Of a stretch of 32,000 bases of DNA, positions 376 to 32,000 are shown one piece after another. Position 1 is the first letter of the stretch. Each line of letters opens with the position of its first letter. Source of the DNA: Telmatocola sphagniphila (GTDB taxonomy: Bacteria > Planctomycetota > Planctomycetia > Gemmatales > Gemmataceae); contig NZ_CP074694.1 of NCBI RefSeq assembly GCF_018398935.1, positions 3,660,001-3,692,000 on the forward strand, written 5' to 3'. Made by a program: the position numbers and the translations under genes. The notes beneath the pieces are model-generated. The model was not told the origin of the DNA. It saw only the letters and a program-made list of their open reading frames with translations, and did not search any database.

Positions 376-1815
376 ATGTACAAGTTCATTCTCTGTTGCC
401 GGTATCTACGAACTCGCTTTCTGGCGCTGGTTTGCATCGTCAGCGTGATGCTCGGCGTCGCCACCCTGATCGTCGTCAATTCGGTCATGAGCGGCTTCAG
501 CACGAAGCTACGCGATCGCCTTCACAAAATGATTTCCGATGTGGTCATCGAATCGCCCAATGTCCAGGGCTTTCCCATGTCGGTCGAGCGAATGCTGAAG
601 AAGATTCAGGAATCGCCGATCGGCCCCGAAATCGAAGCGATGGCACCCACCATCGAAACCGTCGCCATGGTGCAGTTTCGCTATCCCAATGGCGAGAACG
701 GACTTCGACCGGTCCACATCATCGGCTGCAATCCTAAACAGCTTTCGGCCGTGGGAGGATTCGGGCAATATCTGGTGCAGCCGGAACGGCGAATCGATCC
801 CAGTTTCGAACTTACTGAAGAAGCCAAAAAACGCTACGACTTCCTCTATCCGCCGGCTCACAAGCTGCCGGATTTGCAAAAACCGCCACTGGGCGCCCCA
901 CAGGCTAATGGCGATCCACCGTTGCCGCCGGTGATGCCGCCGCCGGAATTAGACCGTTCGCTGCCCGGCATCATTGTCGGTTATGCGATGGCCAGCTATC
1001 GGGACACCGATCCGGACACCGGCATCCTTCAGGAAAATTTTGTCATCCATCCCGGCGATGTGATGCAAATCATGACCATGGGTGTGGGTAAAGAGAATCC
1101 GGAGCCGGTCTATTCCAGTTTCATTGTCTGCGACTATATGAAGACGGAACTGGGCGATCAGGATTCCAATTTCGTGTTCGTGGATATCGACTACCTGGCC
1201 CGACTGCGGGGAATGGATGGCTCGGCAAGCACCATTCAAATCAAGTTGAAGAATTACGAACACGCCTCGCATGTGGTGGCAGAACTCGAAAGATTGTTCC
1301 CGAAGAGTGCCGGCTATTTCATCAACCGCTGGGAAGACAAACAATCGGCATTGCTTTCGGCGATCGATGTGGAGCGTGGCATTCTCAACATCCTGCTGTT
1401 TATGATCGTCGGGGTGGCCGGGTTCGGTATTCTGGCGATCTTCTCCATGATCGTCGTCGAGAAGACCCGCGACATCGGCATCATGAAATCTCTGGGGGCT
1501 TCGAACCGGGGCATCATGTGTATCTTCCTCAGCTATGGGTTCTTACTCGGTTTAGTGGGCAGCGTGCTGGGAAGTACTCTCGGCGTGCTGATCACCCGAA
1601 ACATCAATGTGATCGAGCATAAAATCAGCGAGATTACGCATCGCGAAATTTTCCCGCGCAGCGTCTACTATTTCGATGAGATCCCTACGAATATTCAGAT
1701 GACGAATGTCGGGTTGATCGACATCGGGGCGATCGCCATCGCCGTGTTCTTCAGTATTCTGCCGGCATTGCGTGCCGCCTGGTTGAATCCGGTGAAGGCG
1801 CTGCGATTCGAGTAA
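376..1815 (+). CDS. LolC/LolE-family ABC transporter permease (MacB-like periplasmic domain plus FtsX-type C-terminal 4-TM domain)
   Basis: N-terminus is CCRYLRTRFLALVCIVSVMLGVATLIVVNSVMSGF, the typical LolC/E start. There is a large central soluble domain. The C-terminal FtsX-like region is EKTRDIGIMKSLGASNRGIMCIFLSYGF, ending in NPVKALRFE. It sits directly upstream of a LolD-like ATPase. Confidence 0.85.
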   Translation: MYKFILCCRYLRTRFLALVCIVSVMLGVATLIVVNSVMSGFSTKLRDRLHKMISDVVIESPNVQGFPMSVERMLKKIQESPIGPEIEAMAPTIETVAMVQFRYPNGENGLRPVHIIGCNPKQLSAVGGFGQYLVQPERRIDPSFELTEEAKKRYDFLYPPAHKLPDLQKPPLGAPQANGDPPLPPVMPPPELDRSLPGIIVGYAMASYRDTDPDTGILQENFVIHPGDVMQIMTMGVGKENPEPVYSSFIVCDYMKTELGDQDSNFVFVDIDYLARLRGMDGSASTIQIKLKNYEHASHVVAELERLFPKSAGYFINRWEDKQSALLSAIDVERGILNILLFMIVGVAGFGILAIFSMIVVEKTRDIGIMKSLGASNRGIMCIFLSYGFLLGLVGSVLGSTLGVLITRNINVIEHKISEITHREIFPRSVYYFDEIPTNIQMTNVGLIDIGAIAIAVFFSILPALRAAWLNPVKALRFE

Positions 1816-1875
1816 GAGTGGTTTCGGGTCCAAGATGTCGACGGACGTCCCGTGGTTCGAAGAAATGGAATTTCG

Positions 1876-2643
1876 ATGCTAAAAGCAACAGGCCTCTGCA
1901 AAACCTACCACCGGCATGCCGACACCGTGAAGGTTCTGACCGATCTTTCCCTGGAGGTCGCCGACAATGAATTTCTCAGCATTGTTGGGGCCTCCGGCTC
2001 CGGCAAGAGTACGCTACTGCATCTATTAGGAACCTTAGATAAGCCCGATGCGGGAACGATCGAACTGAACCGCAAGCGCATTGACGATTTGAACTCGCGC
2101 GAGCGAGATCTCTTACGCAACAACACTTTCGGTTTCATATTCCAGTTCTACCATCTGCTGCCGGAACTGACGATGCTCGAAAACGTCATGATGCCCGCAT
2201 TAATCAAAGGCAGTATCTTCAACTGGCTCGGACGGCGGAAAGACGCTCGCAGGAAAGCCGAAGCGATCATCGACCGGGTGGGCTTGTCCAGCCGCAAGAA
2301 GCACCGGCCGCGCGAGCTTTCCGGCGGCGAGATGCAGCGCACGGCCATCGCCCGGGCACTCGTCTCGGATCCCCAAGTCCTGTTTGCCGACGAACCAACC
2401 GGGAATCTGGACGAAGACACCGGCAATCAGATTATCGAGCTTTTAAAGAGCATCAATCGCGAACAGGGCGTGACTATTCTCATGGTCACGCATAATCTGG
2501 AATTAGTATCCAAAACAGATCGGGTTGTGAAAATGGCGGGGGGCCATATCGTAAGCGATACCCCTAAATTGACCGACCGATCCTTGAAATTCCAGGGAAC
2601 TAGCGATGAGCAACCGAGTCTATATCAACGGCAAGCTGTATGA
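1876..2643 (+). CDS. lolD: ABC transporter ATP-binding protein, LolD-like
   Basis: Walker [10 protein letters not shown], signature LSGGEMQR, Walker [13 protein letters not shown]-loop MVTHN. The track ORF starts at GTG 1852; ATG 1876 ([11 protein letters not shown]) is the more typical LolD start. The 3' end overlaps ilvE by 38 nt. Confidence 0.9.
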
Positions 2644-23558: not shown

Positions 23559-26249
23559 TCAATCCCGTTCGGGTTCTTCGCGATCCCGAAACACGCCGCT
23601 CATCAAGTTATCAACGGGAGCGTACTGGTCTCGCAGAAGGATCGGAATGTTTCCAAAAGCCGCTTTCTTCACGGGGGTTGTCATCGCGGCTTCCAGCTTA
23701 TCCGAATCCAGTACGTAGGTGAAGGAAGGATACGCCAGAGCTCCGACGCCCATGGCCGTTTGTCCTCCAAGACGCGACGCGACCTTTTTCCGCAACACGG
23801 CGTGCAGCCCATTCAAATCGATCGGTTGATCGGCCCCGTAAACGATCAAAACGTGTCGGCCGTTAGCCATAATATGCTCACCCCGATCATTGTAGAACGG
23901 CACAGAATCAATGAGGTAAACGTACTTGTAGGTTTCCCGCATGGTTCGCACGGCGGCCCGCCAGAGCACACCATCCCGCACCGAGTCAATCAAGGTTAAG
24001 AGGTACACTCCGTCGGGTGCCAGAATTTTCTTCAAGGCATCGTTATACTCGCGGGTCATCAAGTGGTACGGCACCGAGAGATCGTTCACGGCATCCTGCA
24101 TAATTAAGTGATAATACCCCTTTTGTGCTTTCTCGCTGACGTACTGCCGGCCATCCATGTGAATGGGTGTAATCTGGCTCGGTCGCCGCAGTTTCATTTG
24201 TTCGGAGAGGACGACTCCGACGCTCCCCAGAAGGTAGCCGACTTCGATGCGTCGGCTGGATAAAGCCAGTTTTTCGTAAGCGATCCGGGTTACCCCGGGA
24301 TCGATTTCCACGACATCGGTATGTACTTCGGGCAGAGTGTAATCGACCCAGCGCGGGAATGTGTAACCGCCGCCGCCGATGACGAGGCATTTCGTATCGG
24401 GGTGATGATCCAAAGCCAAGCGGAGCAATTCCCCTTGAATCTCCTCGTGCGTGTAACCCAGAAACGAAGGATCGTCGATATCCACAAACGAATGCGACAA
24501 GTGATCCAAAGAAAGCGAGGCGACGGCTCGCCCGTGATATTCGGAATTGTAATTGACCCGAATCGCATAATAGCGGGTTTCCAGGTCGAAGCGATTCGAA
24601 ATGCTGGGAACCAACATCATGCCGAAGCAAGCCGCCCCGATCACAATGCTGCCAACGAACAACAACACGCTGTTCTTCCAGAGCTTACCCACGAGCGCGG
24701 CCAGTACGCTGAGCACTAAAGCGATGAGAAGAATCATGCTCCAGGTGCCGAGAGAGGCAATCAGGAAATAGCCGGTGACGAAAGTTCCGACGATAGCCCC
24801 GAAGGTACTCACCGCGTAGACCGAACCGGCCACTCGCCCGACGTGGGAGATATCGGGAACGCTCATTCGAATGACTTGCGGGGAAATCATGCCCAGCAGG
24901 AACATGGGAATGAAGAACAGAGCGAAGGTCCAACCCACGATCTGGCGGACGAGATCGTGCCCGACCAGTTGAGTGATGGTTTCGACGTAGCCGTAAGTGA
25001 CATAAAAGGGCTTACCGAAGGGGGGCTCCACCAGCTGATTTTCGTAGATGGTCATCTGCTGGAGTATCGCCGTGATGGCCAGAATGCAGATTGTCGCCAA
25101 ACCGGCACAGAGCAATGTGGTGGAGAGAATATGCGTGCGAGCGATGCCGTTTTTGAGCATTCGAATTTTCTCTTCGGTCGTCGGCAACAGGAGCATGGTG
25201 AGCAGCAGTCCACCGCAACCGGCGCAGATGAGATTGATCCGATAGCCCATGGGTATCTGGATATTTGCCATTTTCTGGATGCGTTCGACCGCGAGCGGGG
25301 CAATTGCCAAACCAATGATCGCACCTAGGGAGAAAAGCAGGATACTGGTAATTAGCCGGTTTCCGATCGCAAGCTGGGCCAAACGCGTGAGCAATTTGCC
25401 CCGGTCGGCGATAATCCCTCCACAGAAATTCCCGAGGGCGGTCCCGGCCAGCATCACACCGATGATTCCAGTCCAGGAATAGAGCGAAACACCCAGAATC
25501 GGGGCCAGATAGCGCGAGGCGGTCAGTTCCAGGGACATGCCGCAGAAGCTGGCGGTAAACACGATGGCATAGGCCCGCCAGAGCTGATTTTTCATCGAAT
25601 CTTCCATCTTCTCCGGCAGTTGATCCGATTTTTCCTCGCGAGGGGCATGGTAACCGATCAGCAGTGTCAAAAATCCCAATACAGCCAGTGAGGCCGCTAC
25701 CCCGAGGCTGATCTGATCGAGCGTGTAGTCGGCCATGAAGTAAAAGCCGGTGAGGTAGTTGCCCAGCAGACAACCGAGCGTACTCAGCGCGAAAATCAAC
25801 CCGGTAATCCGCCCGGCATTGCGAACATCGGAGATCATCAGTTTGATTGTCAGTGGGGTGATGAGGCTCAGGATAAATGCGGGCGCCAGGCAGAAGGCGA
25901 AGGCCAGGGCTGGAATTCGAATCCAGAGCGGCAGGTTCTGGTGGATGTCGGTCGCATTACAAATCCGCATTCCCAACAGCATTGTCAGCGAACAGATAGC
26001 TCCGAGGATCAGCATCCCGGCCAGTGTGCGCGTCGAAGGATATTTATCGGCAATGCGACCGCCCACGGCATTTCCCAGGGCGATGCCGGTGAGAAAGACG
26101 CCGATGACGCTAGTCCAGGTTTCAACGGAAGAACCGATGAAGGGTGCCAGATAACGCCCGGCCAGAAGCTGCAAAACCAAAGAGCCCGCATTGGCCAGAA
26201 AAATGATCAAGGCGGCGACGACCATCATGAATGCCGGAACACGAACCAT
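23559..26249 (-). CDS. Fused MFS-type membrane domain / spermidine synthase-like protein
   Basis: The N-terminal ~560 aa holds about 14-16 TM helices with repeated GxxLGNxxGG(R)IADK motifs. The C-terminal ~330 aa is a spermidine-synthase-like SAM-fold (VIGGGGYTFPRW..., DVVEIDPGV, HLIMQDAVNDLSVPYHLMTREY). The track start is TTG 26369; ATG 26249 (MVRVPAFMM) directly precedes TM1. Confidence 0.85.
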   Translation of the reverse strand: MVRVPAFMMVVAALIIFLANAGSLVLQLLAGRYLAPFIGSSVETWTSVIGVFLTGIALGNAVGGRIADKYPSTRTLAGMLILGAICSLTMLLGMRICNATDIHQNLPLWIRIPALAFAFCLAPAFILSLITPLTIKLMISDVRNAGRITGLIFALSTLGCLLGNYLTGFYFMADYTLDQISLGVAASLAVLGFLTLLIGYHAPREEKSDQLPEKMEDSMKNQLWRAYAIVFTASFCGMSLELTASRYLAPILGVSLYSWTGIIGVMLAGTALGNFCGGIIADRGKLLTRLAQLAIGNRLITSILLFSLGAIIGLAIAPLAVERIQKMANIQIPMGYRINLICAGCGGLLLTMLLLPTTEEKIRMLKNGIARTHILSTTLLCAGLATICILAITAILQQMTIYENQLVEPPFGKPFYVTYGYVETITQLVGHDLVRQIVGWTFALFFIPMFLLGMISPQVIRMSVPDISHVGRVAGSVYAVSTFGAIVGTFVTGYFLIASLGTWSMILLIALVLSVLAALVGKLWKNSVLLFVGSIVIGAACFGMMLVPSISNRFDLETRYYAIRVNYNSEYHGRAVASLSLDHLSHSFVDIDDPSFLGYTHEEIQGELLRLALDHHPDTKCLVIGGGGYTFPRWVDYTLPEVHTDVVEIDPGVTRIAYEKLALSSRRIEVGYLLGSVGVVLSEQMKLRRPSQITPIHMDGRQYVSEKAQKGYYHLIMQDAVNDLSVPYHLMTREYNDALKKILAPDGVYLLTLIDSVRDGVLWRAAVRTMRETYKYVYLIDSVPFYNDRGEHIMANGRHVLIVYGADQPIDLNGLHAVLRKKVASRLGGQTAMGVGALAYPSFTYVLDSDKLEAAMTTPVKKAAFGNIPILLRDQYAPVDNLMSGVFRDREEPERD

Positions 26250-26552
26250 GACAAATCCAGTTGAAGTGGAAGGATATTCGGTTAGTTCTAGGAAATGTGC
26301 GAATGAAAACGAATCGGGGAAGAGGCTCTTTCCAAATTCCTTAATCGATACAACCCCACTCCCAGCCAACGCCCGCCAAAAGACTTTCCCGATAAAATAT
26401 AAATGAGAGAGCGGCGGGACTCCTTTAACTGGAAATCTTCCGCGCGACTTTTCGAGCAGTTAGGGATTTCTTGACAGGGCACCGGCCAAGTCCCTTGCTT
26501 CTCCGTGACTACTATGAGAAGATAAAAAGAGACTCGCGCGGAGGAATCTTTT

Positions 26553-26825
26553 ATGGCTCAAGCTGTCGTCGACCCCAATGAGCTGCGCCGTTTTGCGTCG
26601 GGATTGAAACGATTCAACAACGATTTGCAGGCCAATCTCGCGTCCGTGCACGGTCAACTCCTCGCTCTGGGCGACACCTGGCGCGATCAGGAACATGAGA
26701 AATTCCGGCAGGAATTCGAGGAAACCATTCGCGTCGTCGAACGCTTCATCGACATCGCCAACGAGCACATCCCGTTCCTCATGCGAAAAGCCGAACGCAT
26801 CGAAGAATACCTGCAACAGCGCTAG
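26553..26825 (+). CDS. WXG100/ESAT-6-like small helical protein (90 aa) with W-R-D in place of W-x-G
   Basis: GGAGGA Shine-Dalgarno box 7 nt upstream. Length is 90 aa. N-terminus VVDPNELRRFAS (compare I-x-V-x-P-E-E-L in YukE/EsxA). The central motif W43-R-D-QEHEK-F51-RQE-F55 matches the W-x-G-x5-F-x3-F spacing I recall for EsxA/YukE. Helical heptad character throughout. Confidence 0.7.
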   Translation: MAQAVVDPNELRRFASGLKRFNNDLQANLASVHGQLLALGDTWRDQEHEKFRQEFEETIRVVERFIDIANEHIPFLMRKAERIEEYLQQR

Positions 26826-26840
26826 GCGGGGACTTCAATA

Positions 26841-27359
26841 ATGGCTGCCGACGTTAAATCGATTGCGGCTCTGGAAGACTGGAAAGTCCATCTGGTGAAT
26901 TTCCGAACCGATGGGCTGGAAAGCATTACCGCGCTGCATCTGGAAGTTCAAAAAGCCCTCTCCTGGCTCGAAGATACAGAAGCCTACTGGAAGCGGATGG
27001 TCCGCCAGACGGAAGAGGAACTCGTCGAGGCCAAAGCCGAGTTGGCCCGGCGGGAAATGCCCGATTTCTCTGGAAAAACACCCGATACCACGCTTCACAA
27101 AAAAGCGGTCCAGAAGTGTAAAGCCAAGCTGGAATATTGCCACGATCAGATCGATCTTTGCCGGTCCTGGCGGACGAAACTGCCGCGCATGGTCGGCGAG
27201 GAATTCGAAGGCCCTGCCCGCCGGTTCACTAATTTTATCGAAACTGAACTGGCGCGGGGCATCACTGTTCTCGACAAACAGATCTCCGCACTCGAGAGTT
27301 ATGCCAATATGGGCCAGGTGCCTGCAGCCGCGCCGGCCGCGAAACCGGAGGGGACATGA
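26841..27359 (+). CDS. Helical protein (172 aa) with WXG100-like N-terminal half (W42-L-E ... W50) and coiled-coil extension
   Basis: It starts 15 nt after the upstream stop. Motif SWLEDTEAYW (26964-). It is charged and helical (EEELVEAKAELARRE), with an Ala/Pro tail. Its stop overlaps the next start (ATGA at 27356-27359). Confidence 0.55.
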   Translation: MAADVKSIAALEDWKVHLVNFRTDGLESITALHLEVQKALSWLEDTEAYWKRMVRQTEEELVEAKAELARREMPDFSGKTPDTTLHKKAVQKCKAKLEYCHDQIDLCRSWRTKLPRMVGEEFEGPARRFTNFIETELARGITVLDKQISALESYANMGQVPAAAPAAKPEGT

Positions 27360-27595
27360 AAGTCGATGCGGCCCGGGGTCGACTGTACGACTCCCACAAA
27401 ACTTTGCGACTGCATTGGGAGGACCTTCAGGAGGTCTGGCTCGATGTCGTCAAACAGGAATTCGAAGAGAATCTCTGGGAGCCGATGAATCTTCTGACCC
27501 TCGAAGCTCTGCGAGGGATCGACCGACTGGGACAGATTTTCGCGCAAATGAAGCAGGAATGCGAAGGCGGCGAAAACGTTATGTCCATTTCCTGA
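27356..27595 (+). CDS. Small WXG100-like helical protein (79 aa), likely paralogue of the 90-aa protein
   Basis: W28-L-D-VVKQE-F36 has the same W-x-D-x5-F spacing as ORF 26553. Both share the QEFEE pentapeptide, encoded by near-identical CAGGAATTCGA(G/A)GA. Translationally coupled to the upstream ORF. Confidence 0.55.
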   Translation: MKVDAARGRLYDSHKTLRLHWEDLQEVWLDVVKQEFEENLWEPMNLLTLEALRGIDRLGQIFAQMKQECEGGENVMSIS

Positions 27596-27667
27596 CAGAG
27601 ACAGCCGCCCATTAGCTACCGTTATTTGTTCTCTACAAGCCGACTCGCTGAAAGCACGGTAACATTC

Positions 27668-30600
27668 ATGTCAAATCGAAATCTTTTCGACCGCGAAGAG
27701 CATGCTTTGCGGGAACTGGTCACTGGCATTGCGGAACGTTCCGCCGCGGAAAGTGAACTCAATGCGACTTTCGAAAGCGTCAGCGCCACGGCCAACAAAG
27801 AGTTCACCCGCGAAAAGAAAAAAATTCAGTCGCACCGGGAACAGGAAATCGAGCAACTGACTCAGACGCATACCACCCGGATGACCGAGTTGCAGGAGCA
27901 ACTCGCCACGAAGCTCGAAGATCTGGAGCGCGAAAAGAGCGACAGACTCTCGAAAATCGCCCAGCAGTGCAATACCGCAAAGGAAAAAGCCGAGACCGAA
28001 TACAAGGAAGCCTACTGGGCGGCCGACTCCATTCACGAGGCGGCCGAGACGGAAGCAAAAAGTGCCCGCACGGAACTGCATCGCAAAGTGGCCGGCGCTC
28101 GGGAACGCATCGATACGCTCTGGAAGCATTCCGATGAGATTTTCGGGCAGTGGAAAGTCTCCCGGGAGAGTCTGGCCGAGTTTGAAAAACAGGCCAAAAA
28201 ACCGACCGAATTTCCTCTCACTGCCCTCCGAGAATCTTTCGACAACGCCGACAAATCGCTCGATGCCATCGAGCATTCCCAACTGGTGAAATGGTCGCGC
28301 GGCCTTGGAGCTGGTGCCGTTTTTCTCCTGGTGGCTGGCCTCGGAGTCGGCTTGGGAGTGTCCCAGAACGATCTGAACACCTTTGGCATCGCCGGCGGAG
28401 TAGGCGGCCTCGTTCTGGGAATTGTCACTTTCCTTCTTCTGAAGGGAAAAGCCAAAAAATTCGTTGCCGTCAAGAGCCAGGCGTTCGCTTTGCACATGGG
28501 TGAGGCCGCGCTGGGAAGCGATGCCCTATACGAATTGAGTGAGAGCGATTTCAAGAAGGCCATTCGCACAGCCGAGGATGTTCGCAAGACCAGCAAAACC
28601 AAGGCGGATGACAAATTCAAACCGCATCTGGCGAAAATCGAAGAGAAGCGGGAATCGGAAAACAGCCGTACTGTCGAACGCCACGCCAAAGATCAGGAAT
28701 CGACTGAAACCACTTACACTCAGGCCATGGAGCAGGAAGAGGGATCGTTCAATCAGTCAATCAAGGACTGCAATGCCACCCACGATAAGCAGTTAGCGGA
28801 GGCCGAGGCCGCATTGCAAAAAAAGATCGCAACCGCCACCCGCGAAAAAGAAGCCTCCTGGAATGGCATGAATGACATCTGGCAAAAGCGGTTGAACATT
28901 CTCAAAGTGACTTATCAGCAAGTTCAGGAACTGAATAGCGAACGGTTCCTGCCCTGGTCGGCCGAGAACTGGCAGCAACCTCCCCTGCACAAAACCGTCC
29001 CGGCCGGGATTCGTATCGGGGAACTCAACGTCAACATTGCCGAGATTCCCGATGGGATTTCGCCTGATGACCGTCTGAAGCCCTCGATACCGACCGAAAC
29101 CACCTGGCCTTTCTATCTACCTTTTCCCGAGCGCGGGGCGCTGATTCTGAAGGCTCGCGAACAGGGCAAACAGCCAGCCATCGCGGCCTTGCAATCCTTA
29201 ATTCTGCGTTTCCTGACCTCGGTTCCGCCGGGCAAGGTTCGCTTGACCATCATGGACCCCGTCGGCCTCGGCGAGAACTTCGCCGCCTATATGAATCTGG
29301 CCGATTACGATGAAAATCTGATCGGTTCGCGGATTTGGACCGAACCGGGACAGATCGAAAAACGCCTGGCGGATTTAACCAGTCACATGGAAAATGTGAT
29401 TCAAAAATATCTTCGCAATCAGTACAAATCGATTGAAGAATACAACGCCCAGGCCGGGGAAGTGGCCGAGCCGTTCCGGGTGCTGGTGGTTGCCAATTTC
29501 CCGACCAATTTCAATCTGGATGCCGCAAAACGACTAGTTAGCATTGCCACCAGTGGGGCCAGCTGCGGTATCTATACTTTGGTTTCCGTGGATAGCAAAG
29601 CCCCCATGCCGCAGGGCTTTCAGCTGGCCGATCTGGAGAATGCCGGCATCATCCTCGAATACGACAGTGGACGATTCAACTGGAAAGATCCGGTGCTGAA
29701 GCGCTTCCCGTTGACCACCGAAACGCCACCGGTGCAGGAAGAATTGACTCGCCTTGTGAAATGGGTGGGTGAGCGCAGCCGGGATGCCAACCGCGTGGAA
29801 GTGCCTTTCGAATTCGTGGCGCCCAAGCCCGAAGAAGTCTGGCAGAGCAATTCCGCCAAGAGCATCAAGGTTCCCATCGGCCGGGCGGGGGCTACCAAAC
29901 GGCAGTTCATGGAACTGGGTCTGGGCACCGCACAACATGCCCTGGTCGCTGGGAAAACCGGCTCCGGGAAATCGACTTTGATGCATGCTTTGATCACGAA
30001 TCTGGCTCTTTGCTACGATCCGGATCAAGTCGAGTTGTATTTGATCGACTTCAAGAAAGGCGTCGAATTCAAAGTTTATGCCACCGAAGGGCTGCCGCAC
30101 GCCCGAGTTGTGGCTGTGGAGAGCGAACGAGAGTTCGGCCTCAGCGTGTTACAGCGATTGGACGCGATCCTCCGCGAGCGCGGGGAACAGTACCGCGAAG
30201 CGGGCTGTAACGACCTGGCCGGTTTCCGGGAAGCTCGGCCCGATTTGCCCTCACCGCGAATTATGCTGATCGTCGATGAGTTTCAGGAATTTTTCGTCGA
30301 AGACGACAAGATTTCGCAGGAAGTCGCCCTGCTCCTGGATCGTCTGGTTCGTCAGGGTCGTGCCTTCGGTTTGCATGTCCTAATGGGATCGCAAACGCTC
30401 GGCGGGGCTTTCTCTCTGGCCCGCAGCACGATCGATCAGATGGCGGTGCGTATCGCCCTTCAATGTTCGGAAGCCGATGCTCAGTTGATTCTCAGCAAGG
30501 ACAACGTCGCCGCTCGACTTCTCTCGCGACCAGGGGAAGCCATTTACAACGATCAGAACGGTCTGGTCGAAGGGAACGATCCCTTCCAGGTCGTCTGGCT

Positions 30601-31582
30601 ACCCGAAGAGAAACGAGAAAATTATCTTCACGAAATGCGCCAGCGGGCCGGTACGAAGCATACCCGCGAACCGCTGGTATTCGAAGGCTCGGCCTCGGCG
30701 GAAGTGCAGAAGAATGAAAAGCTGGCGAACCTAATTGCCGCAAGAAGCTACCCCGAAAAAGTGCGAGCAACGTACGGCTGGCTGGGAGAAGCCATCGCCA
30801 TCAAAGACCCGACGGCGGCCGTGTTCCGTAATCAGGGCGGCGCCAATCTGATGATTCTGGGGCAGAATGAGGAAAATTCGTTCTCGATCGCTGGTTCGGT
30901 GCTGGTCAGTCTGGCTTTGCAGCACTCACCAGATAAACTTCGGGTCGACATTCTGGATAGCACTCAGGAAGACGATCCCCGGCATGGCCGGATGGAGAAG
31001 ATGACCAAGCAATTGCCTCATTCGATTAAGTTCGGCGATGTGAATGCGATTGGGCCCATCTTCCAGGAATATGCCAGCGAGGTCAGCAAACGTCAGAAAG
31101 GGGAATCGGAAAAGACACCGATGTTCCTGTACATTCAGGGTCTGCAGCGATTCCGAGATTTGCGTAAATCGGACGATGATTTCGGCTTTGGCCGCCGTGG
31201 AGCGGACAAGCAGGCCAGCCCGGCCGAGAATTTTGCCACCATCCTGCGGGAAGGTCCGCCTATGGGCGTTCACGTGATTTTCTGGTGCGATTCGCTGACG
31301 AACCTGAACCGTTCGATCGACCGCCAGGGAATGCGCGAGCTCGGCATGCGTGTGCTATTCCAGATGAGCCAGAACGATTCCAGTGCGTTAATCGACAGCC
31401 CAGCCGCTTCCCGGCTGGGTCGATATCGCGGCCTGTTCGTTTCGGAAGACCTGACCTTCCCTGAAAAGTTCCGGCCTTATAACTTCCCGAGCGACGAATG
31501 GCTATCGGGTATCAGTAAGAGTTTGAGCGAAAGAGTGGCCGAGATCCCCCAAAGCGATGCGACGCTCTCGCCGGTGGGGTGA
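27668..31582 (+). CDS. Membrane-anchored FtsK/SpoIIIE-family ATPase, EssC/EccC-like (three tandem P-loop modules, one catalytic)
   Basis: Canonical Walker A GKTGSGKST (29951-29977), Walker B IMLIVDE (30260-30280) and the FtsK-family block MAVRIALQCSEADAQLIL. A TM hairpin lies at about 28301-28360 and 28382-28441. Flanking modules have degenerate P-loops (AREQGKQPA / VLVVANF and GQNEENSF / LYIQGLQ). Start is either ATG 27668 or the track's TTG 27626. Confidence 0.9.
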   Translation: MSNRNLFDREEHALRELVTGIAERSAAESELNATFESVSATANKEFTREKKKIQSHREQEIEQLTQTHTTRMTELQEQLATKLEDLEREKSDRLSKIAQQCNTAKEKAETEYKEAYWAADSIHEAAETEAKSARTELHRKVAGARERIDTLWKHSDEIFGQWKVSRESLAEFEKQAKKPTEFPLTALRESFDNADKSLDAIEHSQLVKWSRGLGAGAVFLLVAGLGVGLGVSQNDLNTFGIAGGVGGLVLGIVTFLLLKGKAKKFVAVKSQAFALHMGEAALGSDALYELSESDFKKAIRTAEDVRKTSKTKADDKFKPHLAKIEEKRESENSRTVERHAKDQESTETTYTQAMEQEEGSFNQSIKDCNATHDKQLAEAEAALQKKIATATREKEASWNGMNDIWQKRLNILKVTYQQVQELNSERFLPWSAENWQQPPLHKTVPAGIRIGELNVNIAEIPDGISPDDRLKPSIPTETTWPFYLPFPERGALILKAREQGKQPAIAALQSLILRFLTSVPPGKVRLTIMDPVGLGENFAAYMNLADYDENLIGSRIWTEPGQIEKRLADLTSHMENVIQKYLRNQYKSIEEYNAQAGEVAEPFRVLVVANFPTNFNLDAAKRLVSIATSGASCGIYTLVSVDSKAPMPQGFQLADLENAGIILEYDSGRFNWKDPVLKRFPLTTETPPVQEELTRLVKWVGERSRDANRVEVPFEFVAPKPEEVWQSNSAKSIKVPIGRAGATKRQFMELGLGTAQHALVAGKTGSGKSTLMHALITNLALCYDPDQVELYLIDFKKGVEFKVYATEGLPHARVVAVESEREFGLSVLQRLDAILRERGEQYREAGCNDLAGFREARPDLPSPRIMLIVDEFQEFFVEDDKISQEVALLLDRLVRQGRAFGLHVLMGSQTLGGAFSLARSTIDQMAVRIALQCSEADAQLILSKDNVAARLLSRPGEAIYNDQNGLVEGNDPFQVVWLPEEKRENYLHEMRQRAGTKHTREPLVFEGSASAEVQKNEKLANLIAARSYPEKVRATYGWLGEAIAIKDPTAAVFRNQGGANLMILGQNEENSFSIAGSVLVSLALQHSPDKLRVDILDSTQEDDPRHGRMEKMTKQLPHSIKFGDVNAIGPIFQEYASEVSKRQKGESEKTPMFLYIQGLQRFRDLRKSDDDFGFGRRGADKQASPAENFATILREGPPMGVHVIFWCDSLTNLNRSIDRQGMRELGMRVLFQMSQNDSSALIDSPAASRLGRYRGLFVSEDLTFPEKFRPYNFPSDEWLSGISKSLSERVAEIPQSDATLSPVG

Positions 31583-31610
31583 GGCTATCGTATTTCGGTT
31601 GACCCGAAAC

Positions 31611-31661
31611 GTTCCTTAGCCCAAAATGTTCGTTAGCTCAAAATGTTCGTTAGCCCGACAC
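31611..31661. repeat. Three tandem 17-bp direct repeats (GTTC[CG]TTAGC[CT]C[AG]A[AC]A[TC]) leading into the 113-bp array
   Basis: GTTCCTTAGCCCAAAAT (31611-31627), GTTCGTTAGCTCAAAAT (31628-31644) and GTTCGTTAGCCCGACAC (31645-31661). The third copy is the 5' end of the first 113-bp unit. Confidence 0.8.
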
Positions 31662-32000
31662 GTAAGTGAGGGCAACAATATACGACTCCACAGCCATTCA
31701 CGGAATACAGCGGGCGATTGTTTTGAAACGGGACTTTTTCCCGTCTTAATTTCCGGTTCCGGTTAGCCCGACACGTAAGTGAGGGCAATAATATACGACT
31801 CCACAGCCATTCACGGAATATAGCGGGCGATTGTTTTGAAACGGGACTTTTTCCCGTCTTAATTTCCGGTTCCGGTTAGCCCGACACGTAAGTGAGGGCA
31901 ACAATTTACGACTCCGAAGCCATTCTCTGAATATAGCGGGTGATTGTTTTGCAACGGGACTTTTTCCCGTCTTAATTTCCGGTTCCGGTTAGCCCGACAC
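31649..32000. repeat. 113-bp tandem repeat, 3 full copies plus the start of a fourth; truncated by the window end
   Basis: Units start at 31649, 31762, 31875 and 31988 with an exact 113-nt period. Copy 2 differs from copy 1 at 2 positions and copy 3 at about 8, with no indels. Each unit has a hairpin ACGGGA-CTTTT-TCCCGT (e.g. 31728-31744). No ORF of 60 aa or more is present, and 113 is not a multiple of 3. Confidence 0.95.

What the first reader, a model, noticed from the sequence alone, without database searches (positions are those of the whole stretch)
26553..31582. Minimal type VII secretion-like (WXG100-like + EssC/EccC-like ATPase) operon in a probable diderm planctomycete
Four same-strand genes have gaps of 15 nt and 72 nt and one 4-nt overlap. 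They are a 90-aa WXG100-like protein, a 172-aa helical protein, a 79-aa WXG100-like protein and a ~1300-aa membrane-anchored FtsK/SpoIIIE ATPase with tandem P-loop modules. A WXG100 gene next to a multi-domain FtsK/SpoIIIE ATPase is the defining signature of T7SS loci in Actinobacteria and Firmicutes. Here no EssA/EssB/EsaA or EccB/D/E/MycP-like components are visible. The host context (LolCDE, an OM barrel, Tat periplasmic enzymes) implies two membranes. Either this is a stripped-down or divergent ESX-like export system with an unknown outer-membrane route, or the module has been repurposed. I know of no experimental characterisation of such a locus in Planctomycetota.
Basis: partly seen in the sequence, partly recalled or inferred. 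Interest (0 to 1): 0.85.

Follow-up and report, generated by a model that had tools for sequence, protein, structure and literature searches.

The report
Minimal type VII-like operon in planctomycetes
This is a real four-gene operon (three small helical proteins plus a membrane ATPase related to type VII secretion motors) that is conserved across the phylum Planctomycetota; the type was noted in a 2012 comparative-genomics paper, but nobody has shown what it does.

Summary
Four co-directional genes sit at 26553-31582 with gaps of 15, -4 and 72 nt. P1 (90 aa) passes Pfam's WXG100 threshold. Its closest solved relative is Helicobacter pylori HP0062, with the same W-R-D bend motif. P3 (79 aa) is a divergent WXG100-like hairpin. 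P2 (172 aa) models as one long helical hairpin with a disordered tail. The 1304-aa ATPase has a cytoplasmic coiled coil, a two-helix membrane hairpin, a second coiled coil and three FtsK-like domains. Only the middle domain keeps Walker A and B, so "tandem P-loop modules" is only half right.

The organism is Telmatocola sphagniphila (Gemmataceae). The same cassette, in the same order, recurs in about 60 related loci across Gemmatales, Isosphaerales, Pirellulales, Planctomycetales and Phycisphaerae. No other neighbour is conserved, and no Ecc/Ess accessory gene or outer-membrane gene accompanies it.

Zhang et al. 2012 already described this class in a table footnote, and named planctomycetes among its hosts: a solo WXG gene with a YueA-like ATPase whose three domains include only one active, the middle one. 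It is therefore a new member of a known but uncharacterised kind.

The most likely function is ATP-driven export of the helical proteins across the inner membrane. That is inferred, not shown.

The parts
26540..26544 (+). GGAGG ribosome-binding site 8 nt upstream of the P1 start, inside a 183-nt intergenic region shared with the divergent upstream gene
   Evidence: Read directly from the sequence. The consensus scan found no sigma-70-like promoter here.
26553..26825 (+). P1: 90-aa WXG100-family protein of the HP0062-like subtype, with W43-R-D45 at the hairpin bend and a very conserved C-terminal tail (HIPFLLRKAERIEEYLQQR)
   Evidence: Pfam WXG100 36.2 bits against a cut-off of 27.3. The family profile matches H. 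pylori HP0062 (3fx7) at 2.8e-11, and also matches EsxB and EsxA proteins. P1 is exactly 90 aa in 60 of 61 loci. Mean pairwise identity is 62%, the highest in the cassette. NCBI names it 'WXG100 family type VII secretion target [Telmatocola sphagniphila]'.
26841..27359 (+). P2: 172-aa protein with no family assignment, predicted as one long antiparallel helical hairpin (helices 5-71 and 84-157) followed by a disordered Pro/Ala-rich tail. Locus tag KIH39_14595.
   Evidence: AlphaFold2 mean pLDDT 87.5. No Pfam or NCBIfam hit. Conserved in 63 loci at 160-356 aa with a variable tail, and four Phycisphaerae-type versions carry a C-terminal Imm33-like domain. Foldseek matches are non-specific coiled coils.
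27356..27595 (+). P3: 79-aa divergent WXG100-like helical hairpin with invariant W21, W28 and D30. Its start overlaps the P2 stop (ATGA).
   Evidence: hhalign against the P1 family gives probability 66% and E 5.6e-5 over the W-x-D-x5-F region. Four of 30 orthologues weakly hit Pfam WXG100 (best 8.8e-4). The single-sequence AlphaFold2 model has helices 2-38 and 46-75 at pLDDT 76. Esx proteins are among the best TM-scores, but no match is significant. The 4-nt overlap with P2 is kept in 37 of 59 loci.
27668..31582 (+). P4: 1304-aa membrane-anchored ATPase of the EssC/EccC/YueA type (whole gene; start taken as the ATG at 27668)
   Evidence: FtsK_SpoIIIE 1.4e-36. EssC, EccCa and EccCb about 1e-32 against FtsK 1e-4. 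Best solved relatives are EccC 4nh0 (4e-35), EccC5 and YukB, while FtsK scores only 5e-10. At least 150 clusters at 50% identity give full-length matches.
27668..28282 (+). P4 aa 1-205: N-terminal cytoplasmic coiled-coil region, poorly conserved in sequence
   Evidence: No Pfam domain. Column conservation is 0.2-0.3. It resembles the second coiled coil (hhalign probability 93.8%), which may be compositional.
28298..28447 (+). P4 aa 211-260: two hydrophobic helices joined by an 8-residue loop (a membrane hairpin; both ends predicted cytoplasmic)
   Evidence: Hydropathy peaks of 2.19 and 2.22. Translation checked. All 48 family members sampled have a hydrophobic stretch within about aa 186-340.
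28460..28987 (+). P4 aa 265-440: second coiled-coil (stalk-like) region
   Evidence: Sequence and conservation profile.
29075..29812 (+). P4 aa 470-715: first FtsK-like domain, degenerate (no Walker A), well conserved. It occupies the position of the DUF domain of EccC.
   Evidence: hhalign against aa 1001-1304 gives probability 96.1% and E 3e-9. Conservation is about 0.7.
29813..30667 (+). P4 aa 716-1000: the only catalytically competent FtsK/SpoIIIE domain, with Walker A GKTGSGKS (29951-29974) and Walker B MLIVDE (30263-30280)
   Evidence: Of 152 relatives, 147 have exactly one Walker A match; the extra match in the other five lies outside the ATPase domains. The motif is G[KR]TG[SA]GKS.
30668..31579 (+). 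P4 aa 1001-1304: C-terminal FtsK-like domain with Walker A replaced (LMILGQNEENS). It is the candidate substrate-docking domain.
   Evidence: hhalign against the active domain gives probability 96.8% and E 2.9e-10. The degenerate G-Q-x-[DE]-[DE] motif is seen in most relatives examined. The docking role is inferred by analogy with EccC D3.

Best explanation
This is a 'solo-WXG' minimal type VII-like module, the class noted by Zhang et al. 2012. In Planctomycetota it appears as a conserved four-gene operon.

**Shown here.**
- P1 is a WXG100-family hairpin protein of the H. pylori HP0062 subtype (W-R-D bend).
- P3 is a divergent paralogue-like hairpin.
- P2 is a long helical hairpin with a variable C-terminal tail.
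- P4 is an inner-membrane-anchored EssC/EccC-type ATPase. It has three FtsK-like domains, and only the middle one can hydrolyse ATP.

**Inferred mechanism.**
- P1 forms a four-helix bundle, as a homodimer like HP0062 or with P3.
- The translationally coupled P2 and P3 probably join it in an elongated helical complex.
- The complex docks on the degenerate C-terminal domain of P4.
- P4 oligomerises, probably as a hexamer, so that its 12 membrane helices form the channel, as EccC5 helices do in ESX-5.
- ATP hydrolysis in the middle domain drives the folded helical proteins across the cytoplasmic membrane into the periplasm.

No outer-membrane step is encoded in the cassette. The endpoint may therefore be the periplasm or the envelope rather than the medium.
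For: **Family assignments.**
- P1 passes Pfam WXG100. Its profile matches HP0062, EsxB and EsxA structures.
- HP0062 is a WRD-bend antiparallel dimer whose gene clusters with an FtsK/SpoIIIE-domain gene (PMC3397514).
- P4 is closest to EssC, EccC and YukB by NCBIfam and by PDB sequence search.

**Architecture.**
- Three FtsK-like domains, with only the middle one active. This is exactly the architecture Zhang et al. describe for planctomycetes and other Gram-negative lineages (PMC3482391).
- A membrane hairpin is conserved family-wide.
- In ESX-5 the EccC5 membrane helices of six protomers contribute to the central pore (PMC8232910).

**Operon coherence.**
- Same gene order in about 60 loci. 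The ATGA coupling of P2 and P3 is kept in 37 of 59 loci.
- P2 and P3 model as helical hairpins.
- P2 has a conserved helical N-terminal part and a variable C-terminal part. From general knowledge, that is the layout of T7SS substrates.
Against: - No secretion has been shown for any member of this class (PMC10765036).
- None of the accessory membrane proteins of T7SSa (EccB, EccD, EccE, MycP) or T7SSb (EssA, EssB, EsaA, YukD) is present or conserved nearby. In ESX-5 the EccC pore helices are scaffolded by EccB and EccD.
- P4 falls far below the NCBIfam EssC and EccC cut-offs (113 against 778 bits). It has one active domain instead of three nucleotide-binding ones.
- P1 lacks the canonical G of WXG. 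It also lacks recognisable YxxxD/E or HxxxD/ExxhxxxH export motifs.
- P1 is far more conserved (62% mean pairwise identity) than P2 or P3 (about 34-35%). That looks more like a core structural part than a typical effector.
- P4 carries about 380 residues of cytoplasmic coiled coil, and no Pfam or NCBIfam domain, FHA included, was detected in that region.
Confidence: 0.55

Rival explanations
1. A non-secretory housekeeping machine. The ATPase with its long cytoplasmic coiled-coil arms acts at the inner face of the membrane, for example in envelope or membrane remodelling or in cell division, in a phylum that lacks FtsZ (general knowledge). The WXG100-like proteins serve as adaptors or regulators rather than as cargo.
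For: - Phylum-wide presence, with a tree that largely follows taxonomy.
- P1 is under very strong constraint: exactly 90 aa in 60 of 61 loci, and 62% mean pairwise identity.
- About 380 residues of cytoplasmic coiled coil flank a minimal membrane hairpin whose periplasmic loop is only 8 residues.
- No channel-scaffold or outer-membrane partner is conserved.
- No toxin or effector gene is nearby.
- The authors of the HP0062 structure also considered a chaperone or adaptor role (PMC3397514).
Against: - Among the characterised relatives of both P1 and P4 recovered here (Esx proteins; EccC, EssC, YukB), all belong to protein-export systems.
- No domain suggests another substrate. There is no FtsK gamma domain and no other DNA-binding or peptidoglycan-binding domain.
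- A membrane hairpin conserved across the family is what a translocon needs.
Confidence: 0.27
2. A mobile inter-bacterial conflict or defence-associated module, as Zhang et al. suggested ('mobile versions of T7SS'). It would export or deploy an effector encoded elsewhere, or be linked to immunity functions.
For: - The statement in Zhang et al. 2012.
- WxG plus FtsK pairs sit beside TerY-P and DNA-processing genes in some proteobacteria (PMC4978471).
- The genes flanking the cassette differ between loci.
- P2 carries a C-terminal Imm33-like 'immunity' domain in four Phycisphaerae-type loci.
- The active domain resembles the FtsK-like domains of SspH and mad8 defence proteins.
Against: - G+C content is uniform across the cassette and its flanks.
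- No integrase, transposase or toxin gene is nearby.
- A crude NJ tree of the ATPase groups sequences by family: Gemmataceae, Isosphaeraceae, Pirellulaceae, Phycisphaerales.
- Among the best 80 loci, each assembly contributes one locus.
- The small proteins give no PADLOC hit, and the ATPase hits are generic to the domain.
Confidence: 0.12
3. A DNA translocase of the FtsK, SpoIIIE or TraB type, used for chromosome segregation or conjugative transfer.
For: P4 has a Pfam FtsK_SpoIIIE domain. Taken alone, the active domain scores only moderately higher against EssC-like proteins (77 bits) than against true FtsK (45-54 bits).
Against: - No FtsK gamma or winged-helix DNA-binding domain.
- The three-domain architecture with degenerate flanking domains is that of T7SS ATPases, not of FtsK.
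- NCBIfam gives FtsK 1e-4 against EssC 1e-32.
- The gene is obligately linked to WXG100-like genes.
Confidence: 0.04

Closest known systems
[quoted passage not shown]
   Same: A solo WXG100 gene beside an ATPase with three FtsK-like domains, only the middle one active. Planctomycetes are explicitly listed as hosts.
   Different: - That note does not mention the two further conserved helical proteins (P2, P3), the N-terminal coiled coil or the internal membrane hairpin.
- It calls these systems mobile. Here the cassette looks vertically inherited across the phylum.
- No function is known for the class.
Helicobacter pylori HP0062 (PDB 3FX7, 2GTS) with the FtsK/SpoIIIE protein HP0066
   Same: HP0062 is the best solved relative of P1 (E 2.8e-11). 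It has the same W-R-D bend motif and a similar 'EE.YL' C-terminal end. It is a helical hairpin forming an antiparallel four-helix-bundle dimer, it has no signal peptide, and its gene clusters with an FtsK/SpoIIIE-domain gene. The pair has been called a minimal T7SS set.
   Different: A different phylum (Epsilonproteobacteria). Whether its locus has P2- or P3-like genes, or the same ATPase layout, was not examined here. Its function is also unknown.
T7SSb (Ess/Yuk) of Bacillota: EsxA/YukE plus EssC/YukB
   Same: A homodimer-type WXG100 protein beside a membrane ATPase with tandem FtsK domains. YukB is among the best solved matches, and EsxA and EsxB structures match the P1 profile. From general knowledge, LXG substrates use a long helical domain plus two small helical partners. 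P2 with P1 and P3 resembles that arrangement, but this is inference.
   Different: - No EssA, EssB, EsaA or YukD.
- No FHA domains.
- One active ATPase domain instead of several.
- A diderm host.
T7SSa (ESX) of Actinomycetota: EsxA/EsxB plus EccC with EccB, EccD, EccE and MycP
   Same: EccC is the best solved relative of P4 (4nh0, 4e-35; EccC5 7np7). The layout is the same: two membrane helices, then a degenerate ATPase-like domain, then a catalytic D1. In ESX-5 the EccC helices line the pore.
   Different: - One FtsK-like domain fewer, and the last domain has no Walker A.
- The membrane hairpin follows a 210-aa coiled coil.
- No EccB, EccD, EccE or MycP.
- The WXG100 genes are not a CFP-10/ESAT-6-type pair.

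Membership tests
WXG100 superfamily (P1) | Sequence match to Pfam PF06013 above the gathering score | tested here: met
   36.2 bits against a cut-off of 27.3. The stricter NCBIfam TIGR03930 is below its cut-off (28.7 against 44.85).
WXG100 superfamily (P1) | About 100 residues, a helix-turn-helix hairpin, no signal peptide | tested here: met
   90 aa and no hydrophobic segment. End-to-end profile match to the hairpin crystal structures of HP0062, EsxB and EsxA. P1's own structure was not modelled.
WXG100 superfamily (P1) | W-x-G motif at the bend | tested here: not met
   The motif is W43-R-D45; W43 and D45 are invariant and R44 nearly so across 30 orthologues. HP0062 has the same WRD variant and is accepted as ESAT-6-like.
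WXG100 superfamily (P1) | C-terminal export motif (YxxxD/E, or HxxxD/ExxhxxxH as in PMC3935865) | tested here: not met
   The tail is HIPFLLRKAERIEEYLQQR. Y86 is invariant, but position +4 is the terminal R. H72 at +4 is L.
WXG100 superfamily (P1) | Dimerises into a four-helix bundle and is secreted | not testable with these tools
   No multimer prediction or experiment was available.
WXG100 superfamily (P3) | Detectable homology to WXG100 and a hairpin fold | tested here: inconclusive
   No Pfam hit for the window protein. Four of 30 orthologues hit WXG100 weakly (8.8e-4). hhalign to P1 gives 66% probability. The single-sequence AlphaFold2 hairpin has pLDDT 76, and it places the bend at residues 39-45 rather than at W28-x-D30.
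T7SS ATPase (EssC/EccC/YukB, 'YueA-like' clade) | Tandem FtsK/SpoIIIE-type domains behind two membrane helices | tested here: met
   Three homologous domains and a membrane hairpin at aa 211-260. The best solved relatives are EccC and YukB.
T7SS ATPase (EssC/EccC/YukB, 'YueA-like' clade) | Full-length equivalog score (NCBIfam TIGR03928 EssC, TIGR03924/5 EccC) | tested here: not met
   112.7 against 778.4 bits, 110.2 against 509, and 98.7 against 346.6.
T7SS ATPase (EssC/EccC/YukB, 'YueA-like' clade) | Three nucleotide-binding domains D1-D3 with Walker A motifs (general knowledge; the EccC-like comparators P0003, P0006 and P0007 carry two or three matches to the looser Walker A pattern, while P0004 and P0005 have one) | tested here: not met
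   A single Walker A in the window protein and in 147 of 152 relatives.
T7SSa (ESX) system | EccB, EccD, EccE and MycP encoded with EccC | tested here: not met
   Upstream window genes are unrelated. No further gene family is conserved within 10 kb in 80 loci. The rest of this genome could not be searched.
T7SSb (Ess/Yuk) system | EssA, EssB, EsaA and EsaB/YukD encoded with EssC; FHA domains on EssC | tested here: not met
   Same neighbourhood evidence. No FHA domain in P4.
Solo-WXG minimal T7SS-like class (Zhang et al. 2012) | A stand-alone WXG domain protein next to the ATPase | tested here: met
   P1 is a 90-aa stand-alone WXG100 protein, linked to the ATPase in about 60 loci.
Solo-WXG minimal T7SS-like class (Zhang et al. 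2012) | An ATPase with three HerA/FtsK domains, only the middle one active | tested here: met
   hhalign probabilities of 96-97% between domains. Walker A and B occur only in aa 716-1000.
Solo-WXG minimal T7SS-like class (Zhang et al. 2012) | Mobile distribution | tested here: inconclusive
   Flanking genes vary. The NJ tree follows taxonomy, G+C is uniform and no mobility genes are nearby. The tree has no support values.
FtsK/SpoIIIE DNA translocases | A single motor domain plus a gamma (KOPS-binding) domain | tested here: not met
   No PF09397 hit, unlike the true FtsK comparators P0009 and P0010. NCBIfam FtsK scores only 1e-4.

The most novel reading that the evidence does not exclude
The cassette is an ancient, vertically inherited core machine of Planctomycetota rather than a mobile add-on. 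In it, an EssC-like ATPase alone, as a hexamer with a 12-helix pore, is sufficient to move a P1/P2/P3 helical bundle across the inner membrane. That would be a natural 'minimal type VII secretion system' in a bacterium with an outer membrane. The extremely conserved P1 would then act as a structural or envelope component, possibly even as the outer-membrane conduit, as pore-forming Esx proteins do in mycobacteria.
Probability: 0.22. Interest if true: 0.75.

Novelty: new member of a known kind. Interest (0 to 1): 0.45.

Why it matters
Type VII secretion is understood almost only from Actinomycetota and Bacillota. In both, the ATPase works inside a large multi-protein membrane complex.

A version with just the ATPase and three small helical proteins, conserved across a whole diderm phylum, would bear on two open questions:
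- What is the minimal machinery needed to translocate folded WXG100 bundles?
- What do the 'orphan' WXG100 plus FtsK pairs of Gram-negative bacteria do?

Some members of the phylum are reported to be genetically tractable (general knowledge). Cultured species carrying the cassette include Singulisphaera acidiphila and Limnoglobus roseus. The question is therefore directly testable.

If the cassette turns out to be non-secretory, it would be a new cell-biological role for WXG100 proteins in a phylum with unusual envelope and division biology.

Tried and rejected

- Foldseek of the P2 and P3 models against the PDB gave no match with E <= 0.001. Helical hairpins match generic coiled coils, so fold search cannot classify them.
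- hhalign of P2 against P1 and against P3 gave no support for homology (probability 5% and 0.2%). The idea that P2 is a tandem WXG100 was dropped, because AlphaFold2 shows one long hairpin.
- PDB profile searches with P2 and P3 gave nothing meaningful.
- Rfam found no RNA family across 26300-32000.
- The promoter and terminator scan found nothing above shuffle expectation, apart from the hairpins in the downstream repeat.
- PADLOC gave only generic FtsK/HerA-domain similarity, so the defence-system reading is not supported.

P2 was therefore modelled with 7 sequences and P3 with one.
- The 1304-aa ATPase was too long for the representatives search, so aa 105-1304 were used.
- Sutcliffe 2011 could not be read. 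Its content is cited second-hand.

**Sequence beyond the window.** This could not be obtained for this organism, because the only long contig on record ends at the same repeat. Complete genomes of relatives were used instead.

**Other.** Recurrent neighbour families (Ser/Thr kinase-WD40, DUF1501, GFO/IDH/MocA, ABC) are families that recur as multiple copies in these loci, not partners of the cassette. The alternative TTG start at 27626 was rejected because orthologues begin at the ATG-equivalent position.

Full report
**1. Observation**

The four ORFs exist at the stated coordinates on the + strand: 26553-26825 (90 aa, P1), 26841-27359 (172 aa, P2), 27356-27595 (79 aa, P3) and a long ORF ending at 31582. 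The mechanical ORF starts at a TTG at 27626. Orthologues begin at the position of the ATG at 27668, which gives 1304 aa (P4).

GGAGG-type ribosome-binding sites precede P1 and P3. G+C content is uniform across the cassette and its flanks.

**2. What the proteins are**

*P1.* It passes the Pfam WXG100 gathering score (36.2 against 27.3 bits). A profile of 30 orthologues finds H. pylori HP0062 (3fx7, 2gts) as the best solved relative, at E 2.8e-11 over the full length. HP0062 has the same W-R-D motif where other family members have W-x-G. Bacillus EsxB, Streptococcus SAG1039 and S. aureus EsxA follow. HP0062 is a helical hairpin that forms an antiparallel four-helix-bundle dimer, and its gene clusters with an FtsK/SpoIIIE-domain gene. 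Its function is unknown (PMC3397514).

*P3.* It has no family hit of its own. Three lines of indirect evidence point to a divergent WXG100-like protein:
- It shares the W-x-D-x5-F spacing with P1.
- It aligns to the P1 family with hhalign probability 66% and E 5.6e-5.
- Four of 30 orthologues weakly hit Pfam WXG100.

Its single-sequence AlphaFold2 model is a two-helix hairpin at pLDDT 76. Fold search is not diagnostic, although Esx proteins are among the best TM-scores.

*P2.* It has no family. It models with high confidence (pLDDT 87.5) as one long antiparallel hairpin, with helices 5-71 and 84-157, followed by a disordered Pro/Ala-rich tail. Across orthologues the helical part is conserved. 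The tail varies from a few residues to about 180 residues.

*P4.* It matches FtsK_SpoIIIE at 1.4e-36. Its best curated families are EssC, EccCa and EccCb at about 1e-32, against 1e-4 for FtsK. Its best solved relatives are EccC of Thermomonospora (4nh0, 4e-35), EccC5 and B. subtilis YukB. FtsK scores only 5e-10.

**3. Anatomy of the ATPase**

From N- to C-terminus, P4 comprises:
- A 205-aa cytoplasmic coiled coil.
- Two hydrophobic helices at aa 211-260, joined by an 8-residue loop. This hydrophobic stretch is present in all 48 relatives sampled.
- A second coiled coil, to about aa 440.
- Three FtsK-like domains.

Profile-profile comparison of family sub-alignments shows that aa 1001-1304 is homologous to the active domain aa 716-1000 (probability 96.8%, E 2.9e-10). 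It also shows that aa 470-715 is homologous to aa 1001-1304 (probability 96.1%, E 3e-9).

Only the middle domain has Walker A (GKTGSGKS) and Walker B (MLIVDE). Of 152 relatives, 147 have exactly one Walker A match. In the other five, the extra match lies outside the ATPase domains.

There is no FHA domain and no FtsK gamma domain.

**4. Distribution**

P1 is 100% identical to a protein that NCBI names 'WXG100 family type VII secretion target [Telmatocola sphagniphila]'. P2 is KIH39_14595. The organism belongs to Gemmataceae, Planctomycetota.

A scan of one genome per species found more than 556 relatives of P4. The best 80 are nearly all labelled Planctomycetota, at 40-62% identity (best aligned segment), most of them matching nearly the full length. 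Two are labelled 'uncultured Alcaligenaceae' and are probably mislabelled bins. The 80 include:
- Gemmataceae, among them Limnoglobus roseus.
- Isosphaeraceae, among them Singulisphaera acidiphila DSM 18658.
- Pirellulales and Planctomycetales.
- Phycisphaerales.

An exhaustive search found at least 150 clusters at 50% identity with full-length matches.

In essentially every locus with enough upstream sequence, the order P1-P2-P3-P4 is kept. P1 is exactly 90 aa in 60 of 61 loci. The P2/P3 ATGA overlap is kept in 37 of 59 loci.

Mean pairwise identities are 62% for P1, 48% for P4, 35% for P2 and 34% for P3. Two related loci (L047, L063) have the ATPase without the small genes nearby.

No other gene family is conserved within 10 kb. 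The recurrent neighbours belong to families that recur as multiple copies in these loci. In the window, the surrounding genes are unrelated metabolic and transport genes.

A crude neighbour-joining tree of the ATPase groups sequences largely by taxonomic family. It has no support values.

**5. What is already known**

Zhang et al. [quoted passage not shown] That is precisely this architecture.

Other relevant statements:
- Uchiyama et al. [quoted passage not shown] I found no paper on this system in Planctomycetota. I also found no published mention of the conserved P2 and P3 partners, the coiled-coil N-terminus or the phylum-wide vertical pattern.

**6. Mechanism**

The family assignments, domain architecture, membrane hairpin and operon conservation are shown. 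The rest is inferred by analogy.

The inferred steps are these:
- P1 forms a four-helix bundle, as HP0062 does.
- P2 and P3 are translationally coupled and probably join P1 in an elongated helical complex.
- The complex docks on the degenerate C-terminal domain of P4. In EccC the last domain binds the substrate signal (general knowledge).
- P4 oligomerises so that its membrane hairpins form the channel. In ESX-5 the EccC5 helices of six protomers contribute to the central pore, although there they are scaffolded by EccB and EccD (PMC8232910).
- ATP hydrolysis in the middle domain drives export to the periplasm.

Several points count against this:
- No accessory or outer-membrane component is present.
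- No canonical export motif occurs in P1.
- P1 is unusually conserved.
- P4 has long cytoplasmic coiled coils.

These keep a non-secretory housekeeping role alive as a serious rival. A mobile conflict role is weaker, and a DNA-translocase role is unlikely.

**7. Verdict**

It belongs to a class already recorded in the comparative-genomics literature and already annotated as WXG100/T7SS-related, but never characterised. The added value here is fourfold:
- The precise anatomy of the ATPase.
- The two extra conserved partners, P2 and P3.
- The link between P1 and HP0062.
- The phylum-wide, apparently vertical distribution.

Interest is moderate.

Noticed in passing
window 31603-32000 (runs off the window end): Directly after the ATPase stop there is a 17-bp x3.2 repeat. 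It is followed by a 113-bp tandem repeat of at least 3.1 copies with 95% matches. Each unit carries the hairpin ACGGGAC-TTTTT-CCCGT and a T-rich tail. The repeat occurs nowhere else in the window and has no Rfam match. It is absent downstream of the 74%-identical cassette in L003. The only long public contig of this organism ends here, so it probably breaks assemblies.
   Followed up: partly
L058 8523-9590, L072 8575-9636, L075 1191-2222, L080 1486-2517: In these loci (L072 and L075 are labelled Phycisphaerales; L058 and L080 only Planctomycetota), the P2 orthologue is twice as long (344-356 aa). It ends in an Imm33-like domain (PF24719, best E 1.4e-14, DSGW motif). This domain is otherwise known from immunity proteins of polymorphic toxin systems.
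   Followed up: partly
L047 10001-13942 and L063 9071-13042: Two related planctomycete loci carry the ATPase orthologue without P1, P2 or P3 within 10 kb. A roughly 2300-aa polyketide/PUFA-synthase-like ORF lies upstream instead.
   Followed up: no
window 27668-28282 and 28460-28987: The two coiled-coil regions that flank the membrane hairpin of the ATPase resemble each other (hhalign probability 93.8%, E 1.7e-7). This could be an internal duplication or only shared coiled-coil composition.
   Followed up: no
window 23559-26369 (- strand): The divergently transcribed upstream gene encodes a 936-aa protein. It has an MFS-like membrane region at the N-terminus and a long C-terminal extension with no Pfam assignment.
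   Followed up: no
L085 661-3942: A distant relative (P0008, 1093 aa, 24% identity) also has an N-terminal coiled coil and a single Walker A. Here the small ORFs (84 and 102 aa) lie downstream, next to PqqD and radical-SAM genes. This suggests further variants of the architecture outside the planctomycete family.
   Followed up: partly
window 376-2643: An FtsX/MacB-type permease and an ABC ATPase sit at the start of the window.
   Followed up: partly
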